DNA of 62,949 nucleotides, filler included, from Kipferlia bialata (GCA_003568945.1; 6 parts of 6 records of this genome joined end to end with filler, not necessarily neighbours in it), one strand, 5' to 3'; counted from the first letter of the whole stretch, positions 3,101 through 62,850 are shown. Numbers and translations: made by a program. The notes: generated from the letters alone by a model not told the origin.

Positions 3101-4323
3101 CCTCCTCCGCCATGGTTAGCAGGGTCTGCCACTCCTCCTTCAGCCTAGCCGGGGGGTTCACATCTAGGTCTGAGTTCAAGTCCAACTCGGCGCCGATATT
3201 CTTCTCAGGTATCAGATGTTTGATTGATATGCAAATATATATGACACACATATCGATAGTTACCATGTATGTGTATGAACCTCGGAACATGTACTCGTGT
3301 CAGATATGTGGTTGATATGTATGCTATAACGTATTCCTATTGTATACATATATTGGATTGAAATCTTGGTACTCGACACTCTATTCAGGTATCAGTTACA
3401 TTGAATTGGCATCATTTGTTTCTTTCCATATGTAATAGCTACGTGTTTTTGTCTGCTGTTATAGGATCGATGTCAGTGATATGTAAGGGATACTATATAT
3501 GATATATATATATATATATATGATACTATATCTTCCACTGCGGCAACTGTCAGGATGATATGTTCATTGATACTACTTACATGCACATATATATCCATAT
3601 ACTGACGTCAGGATGCCCTCTAGGTGTCATACCTCAAATAGGAGCCGCTCAGGTACAGATGCAGTATCAGTGTCTTGACTATCAGTTGATGATTCAGTAT
3701 CAGTATCAGTATCAGTGCATATAGTACTGATCCCAGGCCCGTGTGCAACTATACGACCCTATCAGTGGCACTCTCTCCCACTCCACTGGGGAGCACGCTC
3801 CTAAGAGGTTGGGCACGTACATCAGGGATATGTCTCTGACTCTATCAGCTAGGCTAGACCCAGGTAATTAACTGGTGGATGTGATTCATTGATGATAATG
3901 ACTATTTCTAAATTAGTAGTAATTTACTAATCCTCCATACTCACTTACAGATCGTTGTCTCGTATTCCTCCAGAACATACAGAGAGGGGGACACCTAGTG
4001 GACTATGAGGTGTCAGTCAACCCAGAGCATTCAGGTACTTCCACAACGAGTGTTGCTTGTGACAAGCAAGTTGCTTGTCACAAGTGTTTGCTGGGACCTT
4101 GTCTACGCTTGACTCTAAATATTGTAGTCATAGCGGCGTCATCGTATATATGTGTATTTACTCCTATTTCCTACCCACAGGCCAAGACGTGGGTGCCTGG
4201 ACCAATCTGTTCATCGAGGAGGAGCAGTATGCCGAGAGGGTTGTTAGGAGACACAAACACAAAATGGAGAGACAGGGAGGGGGGTTCGGTGTGCGAAGGA
4301 ACCCCTTTGGAAGAAGAGGCTAG
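148..4323 (+). CDS. Multi-exon hypothetical protein (5' partial; contains an N gap)
   Basis: Series of GC-richer exons flanked by (C/T)AG and GT. The last two splice in frame: ...DRCLVFLQNIQRGGHLVDYEVSVNPEHS|GQDVGAWTNLFIEEEQYAERVVRRHKHKMERQGGGFGVRRNPFGRRG-stop at 4323. No family recognised. Confidence 0.5.
1462..1534. repeat. (ATACTG)n hexamer microsatellite running into an assembly gap
   Basis: tactgatactgatactgacactgatactg... seen directly; similar short tracts near 3700, 44425 and 55695. Confidence 0.85.
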
Positions 4324-11374: not shown

Positions 11375-11474
11375 NNNNNNNNNNNNNNNNNNNNNNNNNN
11401 NNNNNNNNNNNNNNNNNNTTAATTAATTAANNNNNNNNNNNNNNNNNNNNNNNNNNNNNNNNNNNNNNNNNNNN
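11375..11474. other. Artificial contig-joining spacer (N44-TTAATTAATTAA-N44)
   Basis: Exactly 100 nt with a 12-mer that has stops in all six frames; the same spacer recurs five times. Confidence 0.97.
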
Positions 11475-11780
11475 GCACCATGCAGCGCATCGAGACCAGA
11501 CTGGCATAGTATATGTACTCATATATATATAGCCTTATATACTATACATTGTCTGATACCAGGCACCATGCAGCGCATCGACACCAGACTGGCAGAGTAT
11601 ATGTACTCATATGCGTATACATATATATACATATAGCCATATATATATATATATATATATATAGTCTTACACCAGGCACCATGCAGCGCATCCAGACCAG
11701 ACTGGCAGAGTATATGTACTCATATACTTATACACATATATATATATATAGCCTTATATATATATACTGTCTGATACCAG

Positions 11781-12028
11781 GCACCATGCACCGCATCCAG
11801 ACCAGACTGGCTGAGCTCAAGGTCGGTGGACCAGACTCCCAGGACCAGCACCTGTTCCTGAGGTATAGACATATATATATACATATGGTGTGATATATAC
11901 TGTGCTGTTTTGTGTGTGTGTGCACTAACCACCAGGTCTGCCCTTCTGTCTGTGCAGAGCCTCTCTCTGTCTCTCCCTCTCTATCTCTCTCTATACTTAC
12001 CCCCAGGTCTGCCCATCTGTCTGCGCAG

Positions 12029-12059
<31 letters not shown>

Positions 12060-14475
12060 ATGTATATATATATATATACATATATACTTATCCATAGGTC
12101 TGCCCTCCTCTCTGTGCAGGGTGTCTCCAAGTGGGTCAAGAGTCACGGAGGTAGGAGTCTATCTAAGAGTATTTCTTACACTCAGATGCCGCCAAGGCAG
12201 GTGCCGCCTCTGCCGAGCCTGGTAGTACCTATCTCTCTCTCTCCCTTCCTCTTCTTTTATCTAGTGAGTCATGTGTTAAAGTCCTTTCTAACAATCAGAC
12301 GCCGCCAAGGCAGGTGCCGCCTCCTCTGAGGCAGGCAGTGCCGAGGAGGCCAGACTCACACGCATAGCAGAGGCATGTGCATGGGTCGCCACAGAGGTAT
12401 GGATTATAGTTAACTATATATTATATATATGGGTTAGGATATATATAGATATGAGTAGCAGAGGCATGTGCATGGGTCTCCACAGAGGTATGGATTGTAT
12501 ATTGAATACACATTATACATATATATAAGGCCAGACTCACACGCATAGCAGAGGCATGTGCATGGGTGGCCACAGAGGTATGATATTGAGTATTATACAC
12601 ATGTATATGTATATGTATGATTTGTATTCATTTTTAGTGCATGTACAGGTATACGCATTGCAGTGGCATGTGCATGGGTCGCCACAGAGGTTAGTTGATG
12701 TCAATATATATACACACACACATATATATATATACTATACATAGAGAGAGATATAGTACATATATAGATATGAGTTGCAGAGGCATGTGCATGGGTGGCA
12801 ACTGAGGTATGTTATGTGTCATTGTTATATATGATTTGTTCAGAGCTTTATCTCTCTCTCTCTTACCACTACTGACTATAGGTCCCCCGCACCTTCTTCG
12901 AGGCCATGCAGCTGTTCTGGCTGGTCTACCTGGCTGGCAGGATGGAGGGAGCCAACCTCGGATACAGCCCTGGGTATGTGTATATTAGTGTGTATATAGT
13001 ATATATTATATATATGTGTATATATGTGTGTATGTATCTGGCTGGCAGGATGGAGGGGGCCAACCTGGGTTACTCACCAGGGTATGTGCATATTATGTNN
13101 NNNNNNNNNNNNNNNNNNNNNNNNNNNNNNNNNNNNNNNNNNNNNNNNNNNNNNNNNNNNNNNNNNNNNAATATAGTGTATATATGTGTATATATATGGC
13201 AGGCAGGATGGAGGGGGCCAACCTCGGATACTCACCTGGGTACGCAGATCTACTATTGCTATATATATATAGGTGTTTGAATGCCTTACTCATCCCCAGC
13301 CGTTTCTGCGACTACATGCTGCCCTTCCTGTCCGATATATATATTAAAATATCTATATATTATAGACATATATATATAAATATCTGTATATGAGTATGTA
13401 TTCTTATGCCCCTAACCCCTAGACGCTTCTGCGACTACATGCTGCCCTTCCTGTCTGATATTGGATATGGATTATAAATATACATATGTATGTTTACATA
13501 TATATATATATATATGGGTGTGTGTATATATATGTATACTCTCTCTAGTGCATATACCCCTAACCCCTAGACGCTTCTGCGACTACATGCTGCCCTTCCT
13601 GTCCGATGAGGACAAGGACGAGGACGTGCTGCTGCTCCTCAGGGCACTCAGAGTGAAGGTATACAGTGGCCTCATCTACTGTAGCTAGATAGATATCTCG
13701 TACTTGCATACATACACATATATGATTGTGCTATAGTGTCCTCACCCCCAGATGACTGAGCTCGAGTACGTGGCCAGTTTCAGCTGGTCCGGTCTTGGAT
13801 CTGGGTGAGTGCTCTCTTTGCATATAGACTCATACATCATAGTGATGATACAAATATATATCCTACATACATCGATATTGTGCTCTCTATGTATGTAGGA
13901 TCCTCTGTCTTAGTATAGCCACACTGTCTAACCCACAGCAACAACTACCAGAACCTGATCATCTCTGGCCCCGATAGTAGACTGGCCAGACTCACAGTGC
14001 AGGCAGCCATAGACACACCCACCATCCAGGTAAGGATGTAGTGAACTCTATTGAACTCTATTGAATATCTATAATATACTTCAATTATTGTATACGTGTA
14101 TATACACTACCATTGTATGTACCAACCCCTAGCACACCCTGTCCATCTGGTACGAGAAGGACGCGTACCCTCATTCATATATATACTCTCTATCTACGTG
14201 TTCATAGTATATATATATAACTACTCCGTAGAGTATTCCCTCTTATATCTAGCCCACTCTGTCCATCTGGTACGAGAAGGACGCCTACTCCAAGGAGTTC
14301 CTGGACCTGGCCGTGGACTGTGTCAAGACAGGTAATGGTGCAAAGTAATTATATATACATGTATATGTATATATACATATATTATTTATCTATTATATGT
14401 ATATATATGCATAAACATTTTTGGAGTTCCTGGACCTGGACGTGGACTGTGTCAAGACAGGTGGGGATTGGCATA

Positions 14476-14524
<49 letters not shown>

Positions 14525-17500
14525 CCTTCTAACCCCTAGGCATTGGCTTCCCTGCCTGGTCCAACCTCCCCACCTACTATCTCTCTCTCTATCTCTTTCT
14601 CTCTCTCTCTTTCTCTCCATGTACATATACCTTCTTATGTCAGGCATTGGCTTCCCTGCCTGGTTCAACCTGCCCACCTACATCCAGCACGAATTGGAGG
14701 CATCCAAGAGACACGGGCTGGAGAAGGTCATTACTGAGGAGGTGATCAGAAAGAGAGCAGGTACATATGTGGATATGTATATATATATATTACTAGTATT
14801 CGGTATTTCTACGCAAACCTAATGACTTTGTATGCCTTGTCTATATATGCTTTCTCTCATACCAGCCATGGGTGGATGCACCGAGCCCACCCTGGGAGGC
14901 ATGAGCTATGGGGTGGTACAGGCAGGTAGGGTAGAAGATTAGTATTGTATTATATGTATGTGTACAGTATAACCTACACTGGGTGGCATGATGTATGGGG
15001 TGGTACAGGCAGGTAAGGGAGAGATTTATGATGTATTTCTAAGCGGGTTTTTTACTAAATATACTGTTACAGTCTCACATCCAGGCTTCATCAACCACCT
15101 GAAGCTGTTTGAGCTTGCCCTCTATGGTGACATCGACCCCAGGACAGGCAGGGTGTTCACAGAGGGGGTGGCTCTGCCCCAGACAGTCGAGGTACACATT
15201 GATATATAAGTATACATATAGTCATATTTGTAGATGTATATGTGTGTATACCAGGACAGGCAGGGTGTTCACAGAGGGGGTGGAGGTTCCACAGACTGTG
15301 GAGGTATCTCTTTCTCTCACACACACACATACGCACTGTATACTAATTTCCATTGATTGACATTGACCCAGGGCTGTCAAGGCCAGATACATCGCTGTCC
15401 CTCATATCTCGATCTCTCCATCTCTCTAATATATATATATATATATGTTTGTATATATATCTATGTATATATATATACCCCTCACCCTTAGGACGTCAAG
15501 GCCAGGTACCTGGCTGTCCTTGAGAAGACAGTGCACTGCTGGACACAGTACTGGAACCTGGTATGTATATGTATAGCTATAACATATATACTATATATAT
15601 ACTGTCTTACTGATATTTCTATGGATATACACTGTATATTGGAGAATGTCAGTGCACTGCTGGACATATTTTGTATACACACCTTATCACAGGTCATGGC
15701 TGCCCACAGACAGACCGTGCCCCTTGTGTTCACAAGTGCCATGATCCAGGTATATGACATAGTATTCATAGTATATATATAGTGTATATAGTGTATATGG
15801 TATACATGGTAATTGTTTAGACTGTGCCGATTGTGTTCACAAGTGCCATGATCCAGGTATTGTCTCAGCCTGATTGGTATATATACTAGTATAGTACCTT
15901 CCTATGTGTTGCATTAACCCCAGGACTGCATTGGCCGTGGCAAGAGCATCGATGACGGTGGAGTGGTCATTGGGCACTCTCCCACCACACTCTCAACAGG
16001 TATGTACATGCACCTACGATCTATTATATAAATTCTATTTGTTCTCATATATATACCTCACTCTTGGCATGGTCAATGTGGCACTCTCTCTCTCTTTCTT
16101 TCTCTCTCTCTCTATCTATCTATGTATATACCTCACTTAAGGCATGGTCAACGTTGCCAACTCCTTCGCTGCCCTTGAGTCTCTGTCTGCCGGGGGTGCA
16201 TCCATGGAGGAGATAAGGGCTGCCCTCAAGGTATTGAGTGACCGATACATATAGTAGTATACTATACACAGTAAATAGTGCATAACACCTAACCCCCAGG
16301 CCAACTTCGTTGATGGGGAGGATGGTGCTACCGACTACGAGAGACTCAGACGCGTGGGAGGTATGTATGGATAGGGTATACATGCGCCAAACTCTCAGTC
16401 AGTCTCTACGAGTTGCATATACTCACCCTCAGCCTCTACCCCCAAGTGCGGCATGACTAATATAAGAGTATATACATACTATGCTGTTATTACTATATGT
16501 GTCATGAAAATGATTAATACTCTATACATATTTCCAACCCCCAGCCGCTGCCCCCAAGTGGGGCAACGATGATGACAGGGTGGACACCTGGTTCACAGAC
16601 CTCTTCGACAAGTACTGCAAGGTGTGTATATATACATTATTATATTATATGTATGTATATATATATATATATATATGTGTATTCTACCCATACCATTGCT
16701 GTAGTACTCCTCTGTCTCTTCCTCGCTCTCATTGTTCTGACCCCAGGTCGTCAGGATGTCTCTCTTTACATGTATATGTGTATAACTATGTGCTATCTAC
16801 CATCTGTGGTTCTGGTCTTTCATTTATACATGAGGCACTTACCCCAGGTTGTTAGAAAGCAGACCAACTTCCTCGGAAAGCAGTACGACCCAAGGTATGG
16901 TATATATTACCCTATTTTACCATATTAAATAGTAAATAATGACTGAGTACCCCTTACCCCTGCATGCTGGCCATCTCCACCCACTAGTAACCTACCGTAA
17001 TATCATACCATATTAGCTGTCTTCTGTGTATATAGTTATTGTAGCATTATAGTACTCACCCCCAGCATGCTTGCCATCTCCACCCACGAGCCATTCGGCA
17101 GGGCATGCATTGCATCCCCAGACGGAAGGTACGCGTGTATCTCGGGGAATTTGGTATGCATCTCGTGACTCACCCCAGGCTTGCAGGCGAGACCCTGTGT
17201 GACGGTGTGACCTATATATTCATAGAGCCATATATATTAATATACAATGTGTTATGCAACAGTGTCTCTATACGAGTATATTCACCCCTAGGCTTGCTGG
17301 CGAGACCCTGTGTGACGGTGTGACGTCTCCCTCCAGAGGCACAGACACCCAGGGGCCGCTGGCTGTGCTGCACTCGGCTGGCAAGGTATGTGTATGCATA
17401 TATATATATATGTATACATATGTATGCAGATTACTATCTCCCACCCCCAGGTCGACCACACCCAGATCAGAGGAGGCCTCCACAACATGAGGTGGGGACA

Positions 17501-18444
17501 TCATATATATACAGTGTACATTCACTCTACCAATAGTGTCATTATTTGACCTCGTCACTCTGTATCATTGAAGAAGTGATTGTATATGTAGTATATCTGA
17601 TGCGTAGGTTCCACCCCTCTGCCATTGCCGGTGTCAGAGGCACCAATGCCTTTATAGTATCTCTATCTGATACGTATGTCTTATATATATACAGTATATA
17701 TATGTGTACCTTATGCGTAGGTTCCACCCCTCTGCCATTGCCGGTGTCAGGGGCACCAATGCCATGCTGTCTCTGATCGAGGGGTACTTTGCAAGTGGCA
17801 AGGGGTTCCAGGTGTGTATATTATGTGTGCAGTGCAACTATCCACGTAATCTATATTACTCTGTTCTCACCCCCCAGCTCCAGTTCAACGTCATCCTAGT
17901 TACTGGCCATTCACTCTTGATATAGTGTACTATACTGTATACTGTATGTGTATATACTATATATATATATATAGTATTCTCTATCCTCACTCCCAGCTCC
18001 AGTTCAACGTGATCCCCACCGAGATCCTCCTGGATGCACAGAAGCACCCCGAGATGCACAGGTAGTGTACTAAAGATAGACTGTATATACATATTAATAT
18101 ATATATGCTTGTGTGTGTCTATATTCATTTGTCTGTAGTTATATGGATACCCCGAAGCACCCAGGTTTGCAGTTGACGAATCCCTCTAACCCTCAAGAGA
18201 CCTTCTGATCCGTGTGTCTGGCTTCAGTGCATACTTTGTGGAGCTGTCCAGGGGCGTGCAGGACGAGGTATATAGTGTTAATACATGTGTATTCATTGTA
18301 TATATCTATATAACCTCAGGTCATTGCCCGTACCACCCATGGCAACATCTCGATCTATCTATCTATCAATCAATATATGTGTATAATATATATATATATC
18401 TTGTATGCATGTCTCACCCTCAGGTCATTGCCCGTACCACCCAT
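11781..18444 (+). other. GRE catalytic (PFL-like barrel + glycyl radical) portion of the fusion gene
   Basis: Cys loop GGCTEP and RVSGFSAYF followed by QDEVIART, where stand-alone GREs normally end. Confidence 0.92.
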
Positions 18445-21400
18445 GGCAACCTGGGCCAGGTCACACCCACGGGGGAGAGTGTGGCTCCTAAGGAGGTTGG
18501 TGTATCGTATATATACTATCCATATGAACTATATGGTAATATGAATGCATAGTATAGTATTTGGTATATTGGTGTATTGGTTGTAAGTATTCTAACAGTC
18601 AGGTCACCTCCGCCAAGGGTCTCAAGCCCCGCTTCCCCGGTGCCTCTCTCTCTCCCTCCGCGGGCGAGGCAGTGGTCTTCAACGTGCAGGACTTCTGCCT
18701 AGACGACGGACAGGGACTCAGATCCAATGGTGAGTACACGCTTATTATAACTACACACACGTATATATGAATTTACATATATCTACATATAGTGCAGGAC
18801 TTCTGTCTGGATGACGGACAGGGACTGAGGTCTAACGGTGAGTAGATGTATGATATGTCTATGTTGGTATATATATAGAGAGGATAGAGGAGGGGGAGGG
18901 GGGGTTGGGACTGAGGTCTAACGTTATGATGTGTTTCATATGCAGTATTAGCACAAAAGTACTTCTTTTCTAACCCATTCTTCTTCAAGGGCTGCCCCTT
19001 GCGGTCTATATATATTAGTGTGACTGTAATACATGTGTTTATGAGTCTAACTCATTTGCCTTGTATATGTCTAATAGTCAGTCTTCTTCAAGGGCTGCCC
19101 CCTGAGGTGTGGGTGGTGCGGCAACATCGAGGGAGTCAGGCTGAACCATGCAGACGTCATGGTGGACACGGACAAGTGCAGGTATTGCTATATATATATA
19201 GTGAGAGACTATTATACTATATACTATGGTATATGCGTATATGTATTATACTGATGCATGTATACCATGCCAATGTCTTGGTGGACACCGATAAGTGCAC
19301 CGATAAGTGCAGGTATATGCTGTGGTGTATGTGTCTATGTGTATTATAAGAGAGTCTCACCCTCAGCGGCTGCCACGGCTCCTGTGACTCTGTGACTGCC
19401 TGTACCCATGGGGATATCACCATGGAGGACGGCACTCCCTCAGTGCATTGCAAGGACATTGAGTGCCTCACCAAGGTATATATACACACACACAGTAGTA
19501 TATATATATATATATATAAACATATTTAACACTTAGGCCGCTGCCCAGTGCCACAAGGGCAACCTCAGGCTGTGCGGTCAGATCACCACCCTGCCTGCCC
19601 TCCTGGCCAAGCTGCTCAAGAACAAGCCATTCTACGGCACTAGGTACATATATACAACATATGTAATATACTATATATGTACTATATATAATACAGTACT
19701 ATACTTGTCCTGCTAGCCAGGCTACTGAAGAAAAAGCCATTCTACGGCACAAGCTACAGTATATATATGTATTGTGGTATGTATACTATTTACTATACAC
19801 ACTATTATACAATACCCTCCCTGAGAAGCTACTGAAGAACAAGCCGTTCTACGGCACAAGGTGGGATACGGTATTCATATATACACAATTCTATTCATTA
19901 TGTGAGTGTGTAGCTACAGAATTAGTCTAATATTCCAGAGGAGGTGTGACCCTCTCCGGTGGTGAGCCCCTTGCCCAGCCCTCTGCTGTCTGTATCGTGA
20001 CAGATGAGCTAGTCTCAGCCGGAGTGACTGTGTGCATAGAGACATGCGGACAGTGGGAGTGGACTAAGGAGATCGAGGTATGTATGTATATATACTCTAT
20101 AATACATGTGTAGTATGGGTCCCTGATGCATATACTCTTGCATATTCCTCTCAACCCCCCTCTGACCAGTGTATAGATATGAATAGTACCCCCCCCCATC
20201 TCTGACCCCCCAGGAGTGCCTGGGCAAGATGACAACCATCTTCTTCGACTGCAAGGTATGTACATGCTAGAATATATCCATACATATTCATAATATGTCT
20301 TTTCTCTTACATATGGATGTTTATGCCTATCTGTCGAGTATCTCACCCCAGGCCATCGACTCTGCCCTCCACAAGCAGGCCACTGGCAGGGGCAACGAGA
20401 CCATCCTGGCAAACCTCAAGGTATATTGATCCTTACTATCCTTGTCTCACGTGTATACTGGGTGCCCATGGTCACTTTACCAGGCCTAGTAAGTCCCTAA
20501 CCGTCAGAAGTGTGCCGAACTATGTGTATATATACTGTGAGATACACTCTTATGCTATGTAGTAGTGTGTATCTAACCATCAGAGGTGTGCCGAACTTTA
20601 AGTTATATATATATATATATACTCATATGCTATATGATTGTCCCTAACCCCCATAGATATACTCTGATACTATGTAATAGTGTATCTAACCATCAGAGGT
20701 GTGCCGAGCTCTTCCCCCAGACCCTGGTGGTGTCTGTCCCAGTCATCCCAGGTAGTGTATACTTTACGTAGACTATACTATGCATATATACATGCCTACA
20801 GTGATACCAGGTAGCATACATATGAATGCCTATATATATATATATATACGTATGTAGACACTATGTGTGTGTATCATATATATATGTATACTTTGAGACC
20901 CTGGTGGCGTCTGTCCCAATCATTCCAGGTATACAGGGCAAGCTATAAATACATATACTATATACATATACTATATACATATACTACACTATATGCACTA
21001 TGTACTGTTTTCTAAACCCAGGCCTCACCCTTGGCGAGGCCCCCGCCCTCTCCTCCACCCTGACTGGCTATGGGGTACAGAGGATGAGACTGCTGCCATT
21101 CCACAGCCTCGGAGACTCCAAGGTATTGGACTCTAACCAATCATATATGTCTCTCTATATACTAAGCATATTTCACTCTGTATGTGTTCTCTCTCTCACC
21201 CCCAGTGGGAGCAGCTGGGCGGTGCCGGTCCCTATGCCGGGTGCCACCTTGGGGCCCAGGAGTACGAGGGGGTGGAGGTGAGTATATACATTGTACAGTT
21301 GGATACAGTATATGTGTATAGCATATAATAGTACCTGTTGTGTAGTATATACTGGATGTCACCTTGGGGCACAGGAGTACGAGGGGGTGGAGGTATGGTG

Positions 21401-21538
21401 TATACTTATCCTATGGTGTGTATAGTCTGTAGTGTATGTGTTTATTGTCGCTTGTCTGTATACGCTCTCTCCCTCTCACCCCAGGCCGCCATGGCCCTGG
21501 GGGGTGTCAAGGTGTGCACACACGACGACCTCTGCTAA
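11781..21538 (+). CDS. Glycyl radical enzyme fused to a C-terminal GRE-activating radical SAM domain (5' partial, ~36 exons)
   Basis: Hand-spliced peptide includes PRTFFEAMQLFW, GYSPGRFCDYMLPF, QPTLSIWY, GIGFPAWFN, Cys loop MGGCTEP (Cys codon 14877), APKWGNDDDRVD, SPDGRLAGETLCDG, QLQFNV and glycyl loop LLIRVSGFSAYF (Gly codon 18220). It continues without a stop into VFNVQDFCLDDGQGLRSNVFFKGCPLRCGWC (CxxxCxxC, 19096-19119), a Cys-rich insert, GGVTLSGGEPLAQ, IETCG, FFDCK, PVIPG and LLPFH. Stop TAA at 21538. Confidence 0.92.
18603..21538 (+). other. GRE activating enzyme (radical SAM, long form with ferredoxin-like insert) portion of the fusion gene
   Basis: DGxGxR, FFKGCPLRCGWC, GGVTLSGGEP, ETCG and LLPFH motifs typical of the PflA/GRE-AE family. 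Confidence 0.92.
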
Positions 21539-22843: not shown

Positions 22844-22943
22844 NNNNNNNNNNNNNNNNNNNNNNNNNNNNNNNNNNNNNNNNNNNNTTAATTAATTAAN
22901 NNNNNNNNNNNNNNNNNNNNNNNNNNNNNNNNNNNNNNNNNNN
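22844..22943. other. Artificial contig-joining spacer
   Basis: N44-TTAATTAATTAA-N44. Confidence 0.97.
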
Positions 22944-26728: not shown

Positions 26729-28660
26729 TCAACTCATTAGTATCGTGACTCTCATAATCCCAACGGTCGCAGTATGATTCTTATGTGAGTCAAGTGGAGT
26801 ACTCTCAGAGTACGCTGAGTCGTCGCCTAAGCTGGCGTAGTCCTCAGAAGACTCCTCGTCCCCATCATACTCCATCCCGGGTACCAGCTGTTCTGTGTCA
26901 TACTCTATCACAGTGACACGGCATGTACCTTCAGTGTCCATAAACTGCAGTGCGTGCCTTAGATACGGGACAGAGGGAGAGAGGGAGAGGGACGACACGG
27001 AGTACAGGAAAGCCGCACTAGCACTCACTACCATGGCATACTTTACCCACTCCCCAGATACAGTATCGTGTAGGTACACAGATACAGAGCTTGTTGCGTT
27101 GACTCCATCTCTGTACCAGTTACATATATCTCTCGCTGATTCAGGGCTGTAGTAGCCGACGAGGTGCCTAGTGCCCAATGGGAACACCCAATGGAACTGC
27201 ACTGGGGTAGGCTCTCCCTTGCTCAGAGTGCGTACTCCACCTGGGAAAGACAGGCGATACATCTTCATTCCAGTCTTTTGATGTCTGCATAGGTAGGCAC
27301 TCTCTCCCTGCTTGACGACTATGAAGGGCTCTTCCCCCCGATACTTGAAGTCCAATCCGGTACACTGCCAGTTGGGTTGCCCAACGCTAGTGTCAGTGTC
27401 AGAATGAGTCAGGTGGCTGATATCCAGACGCCACAGGTGTGCATATTGAGATTGTCTGTTACGCCTGACAGATGGGTAGCCAAAGCAGAACAGAGAGCCG
27501 CAGAGCTCGAACATCTGACCAAAGCACAGACGATGGATATCGTTCCTATAAGGAAAGTCACATACACGCTCAAAGGGGAGAGAGTTCAGGTAGCGACGGG
27601 TCTGGCGTGGTGGGTACTTGATGTGGGAGAAGATGGAGTCTACAGGCAACCGCTCTGTCCTCTTCTGGTGGAACTCTTCCCTGTAGAGGTAACCCCCAGA
27701 GACAACGCAACTGAATGGAATGGTGTAGTTCAGCCCGGTGCCTGACTGAGCCATCTCGCCTGTCACGTGGCCGTCCTCAGAGTCTGTAGTGACAAACAGA
27801 CAGTACCCTGGGTCGTCCTGGGAGGGTGAGTAGGAATAAGTGTAGTGATATATATATATGCAACACTCTCTTACATACTAAAATATATATATATATGAAG
27901 AGTACCCTGGGTCGTCCTGGGAGGGTAAGTAGGGATGGGCCATCCAGTAAGTATACATATCAGAATATTTCAACTCATAAGAAATATAAACACCATCGCT
28001 GAATACTATTTTATGCAACAATGAATATATATATGCAGTACCCAACGTTGTCCTGGAAATAGAACTGGACAAGGCTATATTGGTATACTAGGACATACAA
28101 ATAGAGTTGCAAATCAGGCTCGTCCAGTTACATATATAATGCATATATATATATATATAATGTGTAGTATCGACGTATACTATTTACTATTCTATACTAT
28201 ATTCTTACACTATATTGTGTAGATATAGTGCTGCCCACCTGGCAGTACTCGCCACACACATACACATCGCATATATATACATGCATAGTTTCGCCATACA
28301 CTATACATTAATATACAATATATATGCAATATATACTATTCGTATATATTGCCCACCTTGCAGTGCTCGCCACAGAGCAAGGCGGTGTTGTCACTGAGTG
28401 GCATGCATTGCAGATGGCCCCACATCTCAAGGACATCTCCCAAGGGCTGATCCACAGACTGCATACGTGATTGGGTGATGCGGATCCCAACCTTATCCTC
28501 TTCATACCTGGGAGTGAGTACAGTAGATGGTAAACATATCAGATAACGTGGCAAATATTCCCATGTATCTGCTGGTATTGGAACTATTCTTCGGGAGTCA
28601 CATACCTGGATCGGAACGTCTTGGCAGTGAATGTCCCTGCCAGATAGCCGGAGTAGTCTG
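26729..28660 (-). CDS. Hypothetical protein, possible divergent beta-propeller (probably 5' partial)
   Basis: A 1.09-kb terminal exon (27817-26729) contains the 345-aa ORF and follows a CTCACCCTCCCAG acceptor. Upstream exons lie at ~28355-28507 and ~28605-28660. Beta-rich with an acidic tail. Confidence 0.6.
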
Positions 28661-30467: not shown

Positions 30468-32410
30468 TGGCTTATCTTAGCGGCATGTTCAACTTCGAGC
30501 GTATGAGTCTTCTCTCAGACCCCGACTATTGGGGGACGAAAGAGTGCTTCGGCTGTTACTGCGGGATTGGCTTCACAGCTCTGCTATGTGTGGGCTTAGT
30601 CTTTGGGGCGGGCGTGTTCATCGTTCACTTCTGCAAGCAGATATATTCCCTGCATGTCATCCGAGTGCTCGACCGGTGGATCTACCAGATGCTCATTATG
30701 TGTGACAATGGGTTCTGGACATGTCTTGGCTTCCTCTTTGGTGAGTAATTGATCTGGTTGATTTCTGGCAGCTCCTCGATTGCATTACGGTTGTGCACTC
30801 CCTACTCACTGGCCTCTTCACATCGTTCTTACCCAGTACAGTGGAAGAGAGTGCTTGTTGTCCTGGGCGCCTGTTTCCACCTGGGAGCAGGTACGTCCAT
30901 GTTCTGTTGTATTCACGTTCGGCACATCTAAAACTCAGTATGTAACCGGTATGAAACTGTTTCTTTCCTTCTTCTGTGGTCAATAATCTCAACTGACTCA
31001 GTGTCGGTCTTCTACGTACCTTTACTGCTACGTGTAGTGTCTGTGCTCTTGAGTGGCCAGCTCCGAGACTGCAGGTAGGAGGCTTCTATGTGACTGTTAC
31101 ATATAAACATACACCGATTCATATGATCCAAAATTGTACTCGTCCAGTCTGATGCCAGATATGCCTCTCCATCTGGGGAAGTCCATGCGGTTGTGATGTG
31201 TGTCTGCTCAAAAGTTGGCGCAGTCAAGTCGGTCAGTAGGGCAGATGAAGTCGCTTGCTTCGTGGCCATATTGCTTGGACTGCTGGCTCTGTGGTGGGTA
31301 GTCAACCTTGAAAAAGGAGATCTCCATCGCAAGGTCAGTGAGCTGCTGATGGGTATGAATCCCCGTTCTAAGCAGAAGCTTCCAGAGTTTGTCTTCAAGG
31401 CGATACCAGCTGTCACATTCTGGGTGATGGTGACGCTAAGAATTGTGGTATACAAGGATAGGGCACCGTGCAATGCTGGGGATCCCCGTCCCATTAGCAA
31501 CATATCGGTCCTCTTCTGCGATGACAAGCACGGTCCTGCTCTCCTCTTCCTCCTATTGTCGTGCTGGCAATTTGCCAGGTATGTGTTGGCTGTCTCACAG
31601 GACATTACTACCGCTACCAAAGAAGATGGACCCTGGAACGATCACAGAAAGAGCAAGAGCTACACCATCGCCGACATGAGGGCCAAGTTCTATGACTTCG
31701 TCATCCACCAGGAGTTGTGTAGAGTAGGATACTGCCAGATCCTCAAGTGCATGGCTGTGACTCTCATTTTTACCCACCACACCTCGGATGACAAGTGGGA
31801 GGGACTTGTGCACCAGGTGTGGGTCGGTGTGCTCACAATCTTGACGTTCCTCACTGGGGTGCTAACAGTGTCAGTGAGGGTCGCTCCGGTTATTAGGAAT
31901 GGAAAGGAGTACAGACACTCCTTAGTCGTCCTTAGGAGTGTGCTACAAATGTGGTGTCAGAACTACTTCTGGCTTGCAGTCTGGGGTCTGGGCTTCTGGC
32001 GTATCAATACCAACAAGCCAACCAAGTTCCTTACTCAGTTCTTCTGTGTGACCTGTGAGTGTGTCACATTTGGCATCATGACCAATATCGACAACGGTCG
32101 TTACCCCATCGATTGGTTAGTGAAGAAGATGAAGGCTGAGCAGAAGAATCGTGCACTAACAAACGAACTCGAGGGAGATGAACGCCCCACCGCACCGGCC
32201 GTGGTTACCTACAATCCCTATTGGGCACCGATGTGGAAGAGCCCCCTGCCCCCTGTGCCCTGCACTTGCCCTGTGCACCTCAGAGACGTGGACCATCCAG
32301 CAGCGGAGCAGTCAGCGGTGGACCTGCCAGTGGTTGAGCAGCAAATGCCAATTGACCGAGCTGCCGAGAACTCTGGAGGCACTTCGCCTGACCCACAGTC
32401 GAGGGAGTAA
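30468..32410 (+). CDS. Multi-pass membrane protein of unknown function
   Basis: 405-aa ORF 31193-32410 with several hydrophobic helices and a Pro/Glu-rich tail. Upstream hydrophobic exons (30468-30740 etc.) end in GTGAGT/GTACGT donors. The start is uncertain. Confidence 0.6.
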
Positions 32411-34295: not shown

Positions 34296-34395
34296 NNNNN
34301 NNNNNNNNNNNNNNNNNNNNNNNNNNNNNNNNNNNNNNNTTAATTAATTAANNNNNNNNNNNNNNNNNNNNNNNNNNNNNNNNNNNNNNNNNNNN
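34296..34395. other. Artificial contig-joining spacer
   Basis: N44-TTAATTAATTAA-N44. Confidence 0.97.
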
Positions 34396-57181: not shown

Positions 57182-57281
57182 NNNNNNNNNNNNNNNNNNN
57201 NNNNNNNNNNNNNNNNNNNNNNNNNTTAATTAATTAANNNNNNNNNNNNNNNNNNNNNNNNNNNNNNNNNNNNNNNNNNNN
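57182..57281. other. Artificial contig-joining spacer
   Basis: N44-TTAATTAATTAA-N44. Confidence 0.97.
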
Positions 57282-57498
57282 CTTGCGCATGATGTCTGTC
57301 TGCTCATCCTGGTCGCCCATATAAACAACGCCAGTGCTAGAGTCTAGCCAGCAGAGTGGGTTGACTAACCCTTGAGTTTTTGGGTCTGGTCTTTTAGTCA
57401 CTATATGAAAGAATGGTCCCTATTATGCGTGTAGGGTCTACACAGTCATACACGGTGGAGAAGTAAGGCACACCCGATTCACCTCTCTCTTTCACCCC

Positions 57499-59140
57499 AT
57501 GTATCCGGAGATTAACGCTGAACCCGAGCGTGTTCAGGGAGTTATGGTAGCTAACGGAGTGGTGGTGGACCAGTGCACCCCCTCAGTGCATGAGTGCAAG
57601 TGCTGCAGCACTGAGCGGACCCATGGCCTTGAGGCCAAGGTGAACAGGACTGTGCTGGTCTACGCTGTGCTGAGTGTGGTTTTGTGTGTGGTGACAATCG
57701 TGGCGTCCTCTCTGATATCACTGAGTGTCCGCAGCACCACCAAGGAGTACGAGTTGCTGCAGATCATCAACGAGATGTCTACCGCTGTCAACGACAACAC
57801 CAACGCAATGGACACCGTCACTGATGCATACGCCGCCCTCTATGCAGCCATCGCAGCCCTCCAGGTTGATATGGAGGGAGTGTCTGACACCTACCACGCA
57901 CAGAGCCTCACCATCGCCACCCATGACGGTGTCATGACAGGGTATGGGGTACAGCTGGCATCCCTAGCAGACTCTGCCTCTGCCACAGACACTGTCGTTG
58001 CCGCCCTCGAGACCAGGGTGTCTGACGCAGAGACAGTCACTGCCCTCAACACTAGTACAGTCTCTGCCATGGCTGAGAGGCAGGAGGAGACTGCAGAGAC
58101 CCTCACTGCCGTCAGAGACGAGAGTGTCACATCAGCTGCTGTCATGTCCCAGATGCAGAGGGACGTCTCTGCCCTAGAGGGTAGAGTGGATGGGGTTGAG
58201 GACGAACTGGCTCAGGTGGAGGCCGTGCAGGCTGTCCTGTCTACACGCATAGACAGCGTGGAGGCCAAGGAGGCGGACACTGCTCTGACCCTCTCCACGA
58301 TGGCACACTACGATGTGGACATAGCCACCCTCACCTCCCTATACACCACTCTGGATGTTATCTCTAGGGACAATGTGGCCAGGCTGGACACAGCAGTCTC
58401 CACCCAGACAGCACTGACCACCGCCATGGAGGGAGTCCTGGCCACTCAGTCCACCTTCGACACTGAGATTGACTCTGCCGTCTCCACCCTGTCTCTTGTC
58501 CAGGCTGACATGGCTGATATGGACACCAGCGTCACCACCCTCCAGCTGTCGGCAGGCAGCTACACTGACTTTGCCAGAGCCAGGGAGGTGCTGATGCAGG
58601 GCGTCACAGTCAATATCGCGTACTACATTAAGGCTTCTTTACTCCACAGCGGCAGAGGCCCTCCTGGCTGTCCAGGCTGCCTACAGTGGGGTCACTATGG
58701 TGGAGGCGGTGGAGACATCGGTTGGTACCCCGGTCTACAGCAGCGTGCTAGGGGGTGACGACTGGAGCAGTGAGCACAGTCTGACCTACAGGGCTCTCTC
58801 CTACAACACAGGGTGCTGGAGACCCAGACATGACACCGTCGGTCAGTGGATCACGCATGTCTTCAACAGCGTGATGGCCATCGCAGCGGTGGCAACTGCT
58901 GGAAGGCCCACCGCTGACACCTGGACCACCTCCTATGCCATCGAGTACTACAGCCCAGAGGCACAGGCATGGCTGTCGGCAGTGCCTGGCAAGACATCCT
59001 TTGTGGGCAACACCGACAGGAACACCATCGTCGTCCACACCTTCTCAGAGCCCGTGATCTCTGACCGCATCAGGATAGTGGCCCTGGAGTGGCGCAGTGA
59101 CATCACACTCCGCTATGAGGTCTACGCCTGGCAGTACTAG
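57499..59140 (+). CDS. Type II membrane protein: TM helix, long coiled-coil stalk, C-terminal F5/8 type C (discoidin) domain
   Basis: TM segment VLVYAVLSVVLCVVTIVASSLISL and an A/T/D/S-rich heptad stalk. The second ORF has QWITHVF...AVATAGR...WTTSYAIEY...FVGNTDRNTIV...RIRIVALEW...LRYEVY (discoidin pattern). A GT-AG intron 58620-58686 would join the two ORFs in frame. Confidence 0.82.
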
Positions 59141-59273: not shown

Positions 59274-62200
59274 TCACTCCACCTTCTGTCCCTCCTGGGC
59301 CAGGAACCTGAACCCGGCCACGGTGATACAACAGGCCAGGAGGACAAGGGTCAGGCGCTCCCTGGGGGTCAGGAGGATGCAGGTCCACACACACAATATA
59401 TGCCCATGTACATACATACGTATAAAGAGAGCATATGTGGTAGAGATGCGACAGGGATATGTGCTTGTATCTGCGTGCCCTCACCAGAAGTCTGTCATGG
59501 TTGATGCCCCACTGACAAAGGCAAGCACAGTCAGCTTGTTGCCTGTGGTGATGAACATGGACCGGGCAGCCTGGGGTGGGGCAGGGGGGGGGGGAAGGAG
59601 CAAATAAGAGGCTGCAAGGCAGAATATATTCATGAGAGTATATACACATGCCTTGAATGAGGACAGGGATCCAAAGAAGACAGCCCTGCCATGCAGCTCT
59701 GATGCGTTGTCTGCATCCAGACTGCCACAATCGTCTATGCCGCACTCCCCATAGGCAGCGTCGGCCTGGGGGTGAGGGGAGGGTGTATTACTATACGAGT
59801 GGCATGATAATACTAGGGGAATACACGTACTGGCTGCAGCTGGTCATGGAGCAGCAGGGACCCGCTGAGTGCATTGTACACAAAGAGCTCGTCCCCAATC
59901 TCCAGCACCACCGTGTGGGTGGAGTCTGAGAGGGGCTGGGAGGAGACATGCACATCGGCCCCCTCAGGCACAGCGTCCAGCCCCGGCAGGGGGGCACTCC
60001 ACTTGAAGTCACCGTCCTCACTGAGACAGTATATGTCACAGGCTGGGGTCACAAACACCACCAGGGTGTGGGAGAGAGAGGAGGGCGTGACGAAGACAGG
60101 GGGGTGGGCCAGGGGCACAGGGACGGGGAGGTCATAGGGGTCAGTGTCAGAGGCGGTGTGGGGGGAGTAGTTGGACACAAACACCCCTGTCCCTGGGTCA
60201 GCAAGGACTCTAGTCCACTCCACCCTCTCCAGACCATCACCCTCACTAACATCGGCACATATCGCGTAGTATCCATCTCTCTGCCTGGCGTTGAAGTCTG
60301 TGTCGTCGTGGGAGAGGTAGCATGCCAGGACTCCCCCACTGGAGGTAGTGCCCACAGACACACCCTGGGGTGAGGGGGGAGGAGTCTAGAGGTAGATAGT
60401 TATGTACCGAGACAATATACATACTAAAGCCCACCTGCTCAAACGAGAATGACCCCAGCTCCCCCCCTGTGGCTAGATCTAGCATGATGAGGTGGGTGTC
60501 TGACACATATGCAATGGTGTCTGGCTGGCCGTCTGCCTCCACGGCATCCAGGGAGTCCTGCTCCTCAAGGGCTGCCAGGTACCGCATCTCACGTAGCTGG
60601 GCCCTAGGGGTGAGGGTGGAGTGGAAAAACAACAAATAGTGTCATCATGGAGATTGTAAGGGAGAGAGGGTATATATAGGAGAATGCACTGCTGCCCCGC
60701 ACCTTCCCTCCTTGTGCTTCTTCCAGACTGCAGGCAGCCATGTGTCAGAGTCAGAGCCAGGCATGGCCGCCCCATAGGATATGGAAGAGGGGTGCTGGGC
60801 ACGGGACACTGCGGGTGAGGCAGAGTCACAGGACATGAAACCTATAGAGAGAGTGGAATGGTATGGTATGTCCCTACCTGCGAGCCTAGAGGTGTACCCG
60901 TGTGCGTATGGCTTTGCAGTCACATAGGATGATGACAGGAATGTGCCCAGGGTCTTGTGGGCATGGGTCAGACCAGGCCCAGGGGTGAAGGTGCCTGGGG
61001 TAGGGAGAGTAGATATCAGTGGTACCCTACATCCACAGACACTCACCTAGAGTGTCTGAGGCCGGCTTTACCAATGAGAGAGAGAGCACAGGCACCACGG
61101 GGCTGTCCTCAGGGGTCACAGTGGTGGTGACCCACAGAGTGTCAGCAGACACGGCGTCAAAGGCTGGGGTAAGGGATTGATGGAATCGCTCACAACATAA
61201 GGTCCATCCACTATACATAGATGCATATATAACCCTTGACACCCACCTGCAAAGACGTGGCATGGGGGTCTGAGGCTCTGCTGGGAGTACCTGGCAGTGA
61301 CAGAGGCCACTACCACACCCCTCTCATTACGAGCTGGAGTGAGGTACTGGATATCGAATCTGAGGATACAAATGCACATACAAGGTCGAGCTCACCTCCG
61401 TCTGGGGAGGGTGACACTGACAGCTTCCAGCTATCCAGTGAGAACACATCATCCAGGGGCATCACAGAGCTGGGGTGTGAGGGATAGAGAAAAGGAGGGA
61501 GAGAGAGGGAGACGGGACAAATGGCACACAGCTCGACAGCACACCCACCTGATGTCTATGCACCACTTGGGCACGAGGTCCTCTCTGTACAGGCAGAGGG
61601 AGAGAGAGGAGCTGAGGAAGGCCAGGTAGCGGGGCCTCTGCTGGTTGGCCCACACAGTGGGAATGGGGTCAATGCGGCCTAGGGGGTGAGAGACTGGAAA
61701 GGGGGAACGCGATTATAGTATTCACTCTACTCCCACCTGTAGCCATTGCCACCACCGCCCCCACTATGGGAATATCTCCAGACTCAGGGGCAGAGGGGGT
61801 GTCCTCTGACTCATCATCAGCATCATCACCAGTATCATCACTAGCATCATCATCGACACCAGTATCATCACCAGTAGCATCGTCGCCAGTGGCATCGTCG
61901 CCAGTAGCATCGTCACCAGTTTCGTCTACACCGGTACCGCCATCACCAGTATCATCGCCAGCAGTATTATTGTCCCCAGTGTCACTGTCACCAGTATCAG
62001 CATCACCAGTATCGTCTGAGGGGGTTTCATCATCAACGGCTGTACCATCACCCTCTGTCTCAGTGGTCCCATCCCCTGCACTGAGGGAGTCTTCTCCCTC
62101 AACCTCCTTCACCCCCTCTCCCTCTCCCTCTTCTTCACCCTGGTATGTGAGTGCCAGGTCCACCTCCTCCATCTCATATGCCCATGTGTCAGGCACCCCT

Positions 62201-62850
62201 CCCCCCAGCACATCCCCTATGCCCAGGACGTCCTGACTGTCCCTGTTGGCATAGGTGTTCCTGGGGTTGGAAGAGAGGGGGGGGGGGAGTGTGAGAGAGA
62301 GGGAGGAAAGAGGAGTTGAGAGGGAGGAAAGACTCTGACTGGCAAATAGAATGTGCAGCCAGCAGTGTCATAGAACAGTGCCATTATAGTGTCAGTGTCT
62401 ACCTGTAGAAGTGTGTGTCTGCCATGCGTGTGTATGTGTACTCTGTCCACAGGCCTAGCATACCCAGCAGCTGCACATGGGCATTGCCAGCTGGGGGTAA
62501 GAGAAAATAGTCACTATTATATAGTGGGAAGGGGGGGGAGTGAGTAATTATCACTCACACTCCATATGAGGCGAGTCTGACCTGTGTCCTTGTATCCAGT
62601 CATGACATGGGGCAGACGGATGGAATACTCTCTGTGCGTGAGAGAGTATTGTGGGATAAATATACATATATACAACACCCACATGTAGTTCCTGGTCAGG
62701 GACAGAGGAGAAAATTAATATTTATATACACCTAACAAGGTATATACACCCCATGTACATATATACCTGTAATTCCTGGTCAGGGATATGTCCAGGTTGG
62801 CCACAGAGGGGGCAGCCCAGCAGGAGTCATACGTCTCTCTGGGATTAGGG
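59274..62850 (-). CDS. FG-GAP-like beta-propeller membrane protein with acidic insertion and C-terminal TM helix (5' partial)
   Basis: Spliced segments AAPSVANLD, VVAMATGG, LSLCLYREDLVPKW, LIMLDLATGG, VVFVTPACDIYCLSEDGDFKW and terminal ERLTLVLLACCITVAGFRFLAQEGQKVE-TGA (59274). The family assignment is from motif recollection only. Confidence 0.55.
61810..62040 (-). repeat. Coding 15-nt repeat giving (GDDAT/GDDT)n acidic low-complexity region
   Basis: DDTGDADTGDSDTGDNNTAGDDTG...GDDATGDDATGDDATGDDTG in ORF 61669-62211. Confidence 0.85.

What the first reader, a model, noticed from the sequence alone, without database searches (positions are those of the whole stretch)
11781..21538. Eukaryotic glycyl radical enzyme fused to its own radical-SAM activase in one spliced polypeptide
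Seen: after the glycyl loop exon (RVSGFSAYF...QDE, 18198-18267), exon 18424-18495 reads VIARTTHGNLGQVTPTGESVAPKE with no stop. Exon 18603-18729 follows in phase 0 (VTSAKGLKPRFPGASLSPSAGEAVVFNVQDFCLDDGQGLRSN) with no in-frame ATG ahead of the activase motifs, so a ~40-aa P/G/S/A-rich linker joins the two domains. Established: GREs and their activases are normally separate prokaryotic genes, and the glycyl domain is the GRE C-terminus. Inference: a bacterial two-gene operon was acquired laterally, fused and filled with ~35 introns, giving a potentially self-activating radical enzyme in an anaerobic protist. I cannot confirm that no such fusion has been reported elsewhere.
Basis: partly seen in the sequence, partly recalled or inferred. 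Interest (0 to 1): 0.93.

Follow-up and report, generated by a model that had tools for sequence, protein, structure and literature searches.

The report
Protist radical decarboxylase fused to activase
This gene of the anaerobic protist Kipferlia is spliced into one message encoding a glycyl radical enzyme joined to its activating enzyme, a fusion already reported from other anaerobic protists, and it likely converts a tyrosine breakdown product into p-cresol.

Summary
The fusion is real but not new. Thirty-six GT-AG exons give one stop-free frame identical to Kipferlia bialata GIQ83960.1. One 3,600-nt spliced contig runs from the glycyl loop through a ~37-aa linker into the radical-SAM motif. 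About 620 nt of the 5' end lie beyond an assembly gap.

The same fusion, same order and clade, occurs in Paratrimastix, Hexamita, Pelomyxa, Mastigella and Rhizomastix. It is published as 'HPAD-AE' (PMC10703272 supplements; Nyvltova 2017, not readable here), and a K. bialata homologue is tabulated in PMC7762791. Both halves group with one prokaryotic GRE-then-activase operon family.

What I add: it is not a canonical HPAD. HPAD's Glu637 and His536 are Leu and Gly in 124 of 124 relatives, no HpdC is found, and the pocket matches indoleacetate decarboxylase except His514 to Gln. It is likely an uncharacterised arylacetate decarboxylase. Substrate (most likely 4-hydroxyphenylacetate) and self-activation are untested. 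Also found: 78 reverse-order activase-GRE fusions and 3 PFL-PFLA fusions.

The parts
11781..21538 (+). Visible 3' part of the GRE-activase fusion gene, 36 exons: 11781-11862, 12098-12150, 12299-12396, 12882-12973, 13571-13658, 13752-13804, 13939-14029, 14253-14331, 14644-14760, 14866-14925, 15085-15191, 15492-15560, 15693-15749, 15924-15999, 16142-16230, 16300-16360, 16545-16621, 16848-16894, 17066-17128, 17292-17385, 17451-17491, 17721-17811, 17997-18061, 18198-18267, 18424-18495, 18603-18729, 19082-19181, 19367-19475, 19537-19643, 19939-20077, 20214-20255, 20352-20420, 20697-20751, 21022-21122, 21206-21277, 21485-21538 (TAA)
   Evidence: 35 of 35 introns GT-AG, one open frame; equals GIQ83960.1; exon GC about 0.60 against intron 0.37 (near-final model)
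11375..11474 (.). Assembly gap/spacer that cuts off the 5' part of the gene (about 620 nt of transcript, about 200 aa)
   Evidence: N runs; NCBI record is 'partial' on an 11,369-nt contig; contig arithmetic
11781..18444 (+). GRE catalytic domain (P0001 residues 1-613), arylacetate-decarboxylase type
   Evidence: PF02901 and PF01228; best NCBIfam model is indoleacetate decarboxylase, below cut-off; GRE barrel fold
14866..14925 (+). Thiyl loop exon, GGCTEP: Cys255 (14877-14879), Glu257, and Gln269 at IAD's His514 position
   Evidence: alignments to HPAD and IAD
18198..18267 (+). Glycyl loop exon, RVSGF: Gly591 (18220-18222)
   Evidence: RNA contig
18445..18662 (+). Linker, residues 614-650, split by intron 18496-18602
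   Evidence: spliced across in the RNA contig; low pLDDT, no secondary structure; 19-42 aa in the ten fused relatives
18663..21538 (+). Radical-SAM activase domain (residues about 651-954): CxxxCxxC at 19096-19119 (Cys678/682/685), ferredoxin-like insert with 7 Cys, GGEP motif
   Evidence: TIGR02494 202.1 bits over cut-off 174.35; PF04055; motif positions
11475..21393 (+). 31 intronic partial copies (25-54 nt) of the ends of the flanking exons; not part of the protein
   Evidence: skipped by the RNA contig where tested

Best explanation
The gene is spliced into one message encoding a glycyl radical enzyme with its radical-SAM activase tethered at the C-terminus, and the protein likely activates itself and likely decarboxylates 4-hydroxyphenylacetate to p-cresol by an IAD-like hydrogen-abstraction route rather than HPAD's. 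Steps: (1) shown: one transcript, one reading frame, both domains with their catalytic motifs. (2) From established GRE chemistry: the activase [4Fe-4S] cluster cleaves SAM, the 5'-deoxyadenosyl radical takes H from Gly591, and the radical passes to Cys255. (3) Inferred: the linker follows the glycyl-radical domain directly, so activation within one chain or one dimer is plausible, and the fusion fixes 1:1 co-expression of a former operon. (4) Inferred: the thiyl radical attacks an arylacetate held by Trp149, Tyr158, Leu371, Gln269 and an Arg in the missing N-terminus; Glu257 protonates; CO2 leaves. (5) Inferred from orthologues: the substrate is the tyrosine-derived acid, and p-cresol may suppress bacteria. 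(6) Supported by trees: origin by lateral transfer of a GRE-then-activase operon from anaerobic prokaryotes; donor unresolved.
For: Fusion. Same-order fusions at 53-58% GRE identity in Paratrimastix (named 'HPAD-activating enzyme fusion protein'), Pelomyxa and Mastigella, and in Hexamita and Rhizomastix. PMC10703272 supplements list PAPYR_2001 as HPAD-AE with best hit M. balamuthi ANP21964 at E=0.0, and call M. balamuthi the only eukaryote reported to produce p-cresol. PMC7762791 Table S1 marks EC 4.1.1.83 for K. bialata and Trepomonas. Pocket: IAD's essential Arg226, Trp392, Phe/Tyr401, Cys500, Glu502 and Leu616 (PMC9248008) are matched by R in 123 of 124 rows (the gap is Kipferlia's missing N-terminus), and by W, F/Y, C, E and L in 124 of 124. 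AAD shows that 4-hydroxyphenylacetate can be decarboxylated without HPAD's residues or small subunit (PMC13450708). Operon order and trees.
Against: No biochemistry exists here for this protein or its prokaryotic clade. The phenol-binding residues of HPAD are absent, and the nearest characterised enzyme is IAD (37% identity against 33% to HPAD), so indole-3-acetate or another arylacetate is a live alternative. I could not read Nyvltova 2017 and never held the M. balamuthi sequence; its place in this clade is inferred through Paratrimastix. I cannot say whether purified enzyme was assayed there. A Rhizomastix isoform stops just after the GRE (826 aa, P0147), and the Pelomyxa database model lacks CxxxCxxC, so the activase half may not always be used. 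Kipferlia's branch is long in both trees and its ferredoxin insert has 7 rather than 8 Cys. Run X2 is RNA by guess and from the same sample as the DNA.
Confidence: 0.6

Rival explanations
1. Same fusion and self-activation, but the substrate is indole-3-acetate (giving skatole) or another non-phenolic arylacetate, and the 'HPAD' label was carried over by similarity.
For: The best NCBIfam model is IAD for all 7 of 7 relatives scanned and for P0001. The pocket matches IAD at every essential position. His514 variants of IAD keep some activity. No HpdC is found.
Against: All scores are below the IAD cut-off. His514 is Gln in 124 of 124 rows. The clade is separate from the one IAD row in the tree. 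p-Cresol production is reported for M. balamuthi.
Confidence: 0.25
2. It is a canonical HPAD working by the Kolbe-type route with Glu637 and a small Fe-S subunit, as its published name implies.
For: Published name HPAD-AE; database names; Cys-x-Glu and Arg223 equivalents are present.
Against: Glu637 is Leu, His536 is Gly and Ser344 is Leu/Met in 124 of 124 rows. The full-length relatives score 472-592 bits against a cut-off of 1150. An HpdC profile hits only HPAD loci: none of the clade loci, the window or the ten fused proteins. HPAD falls outside the clade.
Confidence: 0.07
3. The fusion is only a co-expression device: the chain is cleaved or activates neighbours in trans, or the activase half is decaying and another activase does the job.
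For: The linker is unconserved, 19-42 aa. A GRE-only isoform exists in Rhizomastix. Kipferlia's activase has the longest eukaryotic branch in the activase tree and an altered ferredoxin insert.
Against: CxxxCxxC and GGEP are intact and the domain passes the TIGR02494 cut-off. The fusion is kept in six named genera.
Confidence: 0.2
4. Two neighbouring genes wrongly joined by gene prediction.
For: Retaining intron 18496-18602 would give a stop 11 codons in; decoy splice sites are abundant.
Against: One spliced contig bridges all three junctions; there is no start codon for a separate activase; orthologues are fused.
Confidence: 0.02

Closest known systems
HPAD-AE fusion of Mastigamoeba balamuthi (ANP21964; Nyvltova et al. 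2017, PMID 27902886, not held) and Paratrimastix pyriformis (PAPYR_2001; PMC10703272 supplements)
   Same: Same domain order, same GRE clade (55% identity over the GRE part and 38% over the activase part to the Paratrimastix protein), anaerobic free-living protist host.
   Different: A fornicate host with at least 35 introns. It keeps a (degenerate) ferredoxin insert as Paratrimastix does, whereas seven other fused rows lack it. The M. balamuthi sequence was not compared directly.
Indoleacetate decarboxylase (IAD, NF033718)
   Same: Arg226, Trp392, Phe/Tyr401, Cys500, Glu502, Leu616 equivalents; short thiyl loop; no small subunit.
   Different: His514 is Gln; 37% identity; below the family cut-off; separate clade; fused activase.
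4-Hydroxyphenylacetate decarboxylase HpdBCA (NF033715, PDB 2Y8N)
   Same: GRE decarboxylase branch, Cys-x-Glu, Arg223; likely the same reaction.
   Different: No Glu637, His536 or Ser344, no HpdC, thiyl loop about 17 residues shorter, 33% identity.
Arylacetate decarboxylase AAD (PDB 7E7L)
   Same: Precedent for making p-cresol without HPAD's residues or accessory subunit.
   Different: Not a close relative: it scores below many dehydratases against this clade.
Other GRE-activase fusions in databases
   Same: One chain carrying both domains.
   Different: 78 of 90 hits are activase-then-GRE, from other GRE clades (20-40% identity over matched stretches; the named ones are prokaryotic), and 3 are PFL-PFLA fusions including Thalassiosira profunda: independent events.

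Membership tests
Glycyl radical enzyme superfamily | Barrel domain PF02901 plus glycyl domain PF01228, catalytic Cys and Gly loops | tested here: met
Glycyl radical enzyme superfamily | Stable glycyl radical installed after translation | not testable with these tools
   needs EPR
GRE-activating enzymes (TIGR02494) | CxxxCxxC, GGEP, score over the curated cut-off | tested here: met
   202.1 bits against 174.35; motifs
GRE-activating enzymes (TIGR02494) | Eight-cysteine ferredoxin insert for two auxiliary clusters (present in many, not all) | tested here: inconclusive
   insert present with 7 Cys and altered spacing; absent in 7 of 10 fused relatives
Protist HPAD-AE fusion | GRE and activase in one chain, GRE first | tested here: met
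Protist HPAD-AE fusion | Same GRE clade as the Paratrimastix/Archamoebae proteins | tested here: met
   M. balamuthi itself linked only through PMC10703272 supplements
Protist HPAD-AE fusion | Single origin of the fusion (eukaryotic rows one clade) | tested here: inconclusive
   not one clade in the free trees; not rejected, p-AU 0.443
Protist HPAD-AE fusion | p-Cresol formation | not testable with these tools
   needs assay
Canonical HPAD (HpdBCA) | Phenol-binding Glu637 (and His536) | tested here: not met
   Leu and Gly in 124 of 124 rows
Canonical HPAD (HpdBCA) | Small Fe-S subunit HpdC | tested here: not met
   profile from 5 HpdC sequences hits only HPAD loci; the rest of the Kipferlia genome could not be searched
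Canonical HPAD (HpdBCA) | NF033715 score over 1150 | tested here: not met
   327 for the partial protein; 472-592 for 7 full-length relatives
Indoleacetate decarboxylase | Arg226, Trp392, Phe/Tyr401, Cys500, Glu502, Leu616 | tested here: met
   the Arg lies in Kipferlia's missing N-terminus and is seen in 123 relatives; one IAD reference row (P0233, over cut-off)
Indoleacetate decarboxylase | His514 | tested here: not met
   Gln in 124 of 124 rows
Indoleacetate decarboxylase | NF033718 score over 1100 | tested here: not met
   472 partial; 692-870 for 7 full-length relatives
Pyruvate formate-lyase | Adjacent Cys-Cys pair (recalled) and TIGR01255 score | tested here: not met
   single Cys in the loop; 92.5 bits against 994.2

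The most novel reading that the evidence does not exclude
The protist 'HPAD-AE' proteins and their uncharacterised relatives in Ignavibacteria, Brocadiaceae, Asgard archaea, Methanoperedens and Bacillota form a fifth class of GRE decarboxylase. It has an IAD-type pocket with an invariant Gln, no small subunit, and H-abstraction chemistry on a phenolic or mixed arylacetate range. The protist version is a natural one-chain, self-activating GRE that fused once and then spread sideways between Archamoebae and metamonads, and it allows cis versus trans activation to be tested directly.
Probability: 0.4. Interest if true: 0.6.

Novelty: new member of a known kind. Interest (0 to 1): 0.33.

Why it matters
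The headline, a eukaryotic GRE fused to its activase, has been in print since 2017, so it does not surprise a specialist. What remains useful: (1) the published name hides a distinct, apparently uncharacterised decarboxylase clade with an IAD-like pocket, widespread in anaerobic sediment and digester prokaryotes; (2) a natural tether makes the poorly understood GRE activation step testable in cis against trans, and a one-gene GRE is convenient for biocatalysis; (3) transcript evidence extends the fusion to Kipferlia and suggests p-cresol or skatole production may be common among free-living anaerobic protists; (4) the grouping of Hexamita with Archamoebae hints at protist-to-protist transfer.

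Tried and rejected
No whole genome is held, so the missing 5' exons, paralogues, HpdC and the upstream pathway could not be searched. No RNA holder was listed on record; X2 is a guess. RNA was laid only on 18190-19190.

Gene model: my first acceptor at 15073 (four extra residues) was dropped for 15085, which matches the NCBI model and the homologues. Boundary slips were corrected.

Reference search: 401 genomes searched for IAD gave 9 matches, none over the IAD cut-off. Of the 7 scanned, 5 were HPADs and 2 were members of this clade.

Trees: the careful GRE tree did not finish, so a quick tree is reported. Eukaryote monophyly and a Kipferlia+Hexamita clade were neither recovered nor rejected (p-AU 0.443 and 0.16). 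Six near-duplicate or partial operon rows were dropped from the concatenated tree. All trees used LG+G4 without the mixture model. No donor can be named.

Structure: the AlphaFold model (mean pLDDT 83) and Foldseek confirm the GRE fold but say nothing on domain docking. No complex prediction was run.

Literature: searches turned up no paper whose title or the passages I read describes this fusion in its main text, the reverse-order fusions, or the IAD-like pocket. The 2026 GRE review has no occurrence of 'fusion' or 'fused'. The library lacks most subscription journals, and bioRxiv supplements were not searched, so this is not proof of absence. The scan's one returned note (e1-1394612) concerns a different protein.
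Full report
OBSERVATION. I rebuilt the gene from the raw sequence. After boundary corrections, 36 exons between 11781 and 21538 give one open frame with 35 of 35 GT-AG introns. With the acceptor at 15085, the product minus its first partial codon is identical to database protein P0001. P0001 is GIQ83960.1, 'glycyl radical enzyme activase, partial [Kipferlia bialata]', on an 11,369-nt contig. That length equals the stretch between the spacers ending at 11474 and starting at 22844. The protein carries PF02901, PF01228 and PF04055 in that order. The activase half passes the TIGR02494 cut-off. The predicted structure shows a GRE barrel, a disordered linker at about 614-650 and a well-folded activase.

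TRANSCRIPT. Two runs from one sample hold the stretch. Laid on 18190-19190, run X2 gives one 3,600-nt contig that covers exons only and skips the three introns at 18268-18423, 18496-18602 and 18730-19081. Its loose ends continue into the neighbouring exons, and DNA run X1 shows no such joints. By record arithmetic 11781 sits at contig position 624 and the stop near 3490. So about 200 N-terminal residues are lost at the gap and the whole protein is about 1,160 aa. X2's RNA status is the tool's guess, and a contig cannot show starts, ends or minor isoforms.

RELATIVES. Searching the activase half against proteins of 524-1670 aa gave 90 hits: 9 with GRE first, 78 with activase first, and 3 with other partners. 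Six of the 9 (including the query) share the GGCTEP clade, the five others at 53-58% GRE identity to the query. The other three are PFL-PFLA fusions, one from Thalassiosira profunda. A search with the Paratrimastix GRE part listed the best 120 of 922 hits; 6 of these 120 are fused. Named hosts of the same-order fusion are Paratrimastix pyriformis, Pelomyxa schiedti, Mastigella eilhardi, Rhizomastix libera and Hexamita inflata. Four further fused rows (P0017, P0096, P0169, P0180) are unnamed; I treated them as probably eukaryotic, which is not shown. No named prokaryote of this clade was fused. In 35 of 37 prokaryotic loci (Ignavibacteria, Brocadiaceae, Asgard archaea, Methanoperedens, Bacillota and others) the activase follows on the same strand, within 150 nt in 32; the two misses end at contig edges. 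The fusion reproduces this operon order.

PRIOR ART. [quoted passage not shown] Its best hit is M. balamuthi ANP21964 at E=0.0, and the authors describe a tyrosine-to-p-cresol pathway ending in the fusion protein. I infer that P0006 is PAPYR_2001 from the identical name. Nyvltova et al. 2017 (PMID 27902886) is not held. That it reported the HPAD-AE fusion in M. balamuthi is my recall; passages in PMC8136499 confirm only the p-cresol claim. PMC7762791 (passages; Table S1 row) marks EC 4.1.1.83 as present in K. bialata and Trepomonas and calls it an ancestral LGT candidate; I saw no mention of the fusion there. Passages of PMC5874029, PMC8003979, PMC3660698, PMC10711303 and bioRxiv 10.64898/2026.07.20.739533, reference-list hits in PMC8537960 and PMC6759080, and a term search of bioRxiv 10.1101/2022.11.24.517819 added nothing on the fusion.

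WHICH ENZYME. NCBIfam ranks indoleacetate decarboxylase first for P0001 and for 7 of 7 relatives, always below cut-off; HPAD is lower and far below its cut-off. I mapped C. scatologenes HPAD numbering from the printed alignment (His536 and Ser344 as substrate contacts are recalled) and used one IAD that passes its cut-off (P0233). Across 124 clade rows the site is nearly invariant: Arg 123, Trp 124, Gly at Ala396/Leu400 124, Phe or Tyr 124, Cys 124, Glu 124, Gln at IAD His514 124, Gly at HPAD His536 124, and Leu at HPAD Glu637/IAD Leu616 124. PMC9248008 (section 7 read) shows that Arg226, Trp392, Phe401, Glu502 and Leu616 are needed in IAD, that His514 variants keep reduced activity, and that the route is probably H-abstraction. 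PMC6181972 (passages) defines the second Glu as the HPAD mark. An HpdC profile hit only HPAD loci. The clade thus fails three HPAD tests and two IAD tests: it works like an IAD-type arylacetate decarboxylase but belongs to neither family. AAD shows that p-cresol can be made without HPAD's residues (PMC13450708, section 5.4 read), which reconciles the pocket with the Mastigamoeba report. I put 4-hydroxyphenylacetate first, indole-3-acetate or another arylacetate second.

ORIGIN. In the activase tree all 10 fused rows group with 24 operon activases of this clade at 98/97. Three further clade rows (two identical) and four HPAD activases lie just outside, and all reverse-order fusions lie further out. 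In the quick GRE tree the fused rows lie inside the prokaryotic clade (SH-aLRT 98-100), apart from IAD and HPAD. A shared operon origin of both halves is supported, with a limited background of about 30 other activases. In the concatenated tree seven rows (Hexamita, three Archamoebae, three unnamed) form a 99/99 group, and these seven also lack the ferredoxin insert. Kipferlia, Paratrimastix and P0180 keep the insert and are unresolved. One eukaryotic clade is not rejected (p-AU 0.443); nor is Kipferlia+Hexamita (0.16). So one fusion with later protist-to-protist transfer is attractive but unproven, and no donor can be named.

MECHANISM. Shown: one message, both domains, motifs intact. From family knowledge: SAM cleavage, Gly591 radical, transfer to Cys255. 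Inferred: self-activation through the 36-37-residue tether, which starts about 22 residues after the glycine; H-abstraction decarboxylation; p-cresol as product and a possible antibacterial. Against: the GRE-only Rhizomastix isoform, the Pelomyxa model without CxxxCxxC, Kipferlia's long branches, and no biochemistry.

SIDE FINDING. The introns hold 31 partial copies of the ends of their flanking exons, in 18 of 36 intronic stretches: 16 of the next exon's 5' end and 15 of the previous exon's 3' end. Of 92 distinct differences from the used exon, 62 are at third positions and 59 are synonymous. This exceeds both 28% (neutral) and 44% (my estimate if the exon also drifts; p = 8e-5). The copies are not independent of each other, so the p-value is generous. 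Fifty-eight similar local repeat pairs lie elsewhere in the window, but their codon signal is weak: 169 of 422 mismatch pairs in phase, against 174 of 324 inside this gene and one third expected. The genome paper passages I saw do not mention such copies, and no title listed concerns them.

VERDICT. Observation confirmed; interpretation partly supported; a new member of a known kind. Interest 0.33, carried by the reclassification of the active site and the testability of cis activation.

Noticed in passing
window 11475-21393 (introns of this gene); similar pairs at about 32600-57000: Introns carry 25-54-nt copies of the adjacent exon ends, many with their own AG or GT, differing from the used exon mainly at synonymous sites (59 of 92 distinct differences). 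They may come from a diverged allele or paralogue by unequal exchange, and they imply splice-site choice among near-identical decoys. The signal outside this gene is weak.
   Followed up: partly
P0005-P0093: 78 activase-then-GRE fusions of about 1,100 aa in at least three GRE clades; named hosts include Promethearchaeota/Lokiarchaeota, Deltaproteobacteria, Desulfomonilia and Clostridia. Seven were scanned together with the PFL fusions; no equivalog assignment for the four reverse-order rows. I found no paper on them.
   Followed up: partly
P0089, P0090, P0091: PFL-PFLA fusions (one from Thalassiosira profunda): an independent eukaryotic GRE-activase fusion in the same order.
   Followed up: partly
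P0180: An unnamed 1,159-aa fused member has a basic, Ser/Thr-rich N-terminal extension that looks like an organelle-targeting peptide.
   Followed up: no
P0170 against P0033, P0106, P0227: The Hexamita inflata protein (4 near-identical copies) groups with Archamoebae at 99/99 rather than with Kipferlia, and shares their loss of the ferredoxin insert.
   Followed up: partly
P0147 / P0227; P0033: Rhizomastix has a GRE-only transcript isoform beside the fused one; the Pelomyxa model lacks the CxxxCxxC segment, possibly a missed exon.
   Followed up: no
L045-L048: HPAD loci in which the activase gene is divergent upstream of hpdB and hpdC follows hpdB, unlike the hpdBCA order of L049 and L050.
   Followed up: no
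window 18268-18423: This 156-nt intron has no in-frame stop, so retention would insert 52 residues just after the glycyl loop; the RNA contig splices it.
   Followed up: partly
window 11375-11474, 22844-22943, 34296-34395, 45740-45839, 57182-57281: Identical 100-nt N/linker spacers show that the window is a chain of separate scaffolds, so genes across them are not neighbours.
   Followed up: yes
window 26729-27877 (-), 31127-32410 (+), 57409-59140 (+), 61669-62367 (-): Long intron-poor ORFs: a 382-aa frame, a 427-aa membrane-protein-like frame, a coiled-coil frame followed by a discoidin-like one, and an acidic Asp/Thr/Gly repeat (labels are my impression).
   Followed up: no
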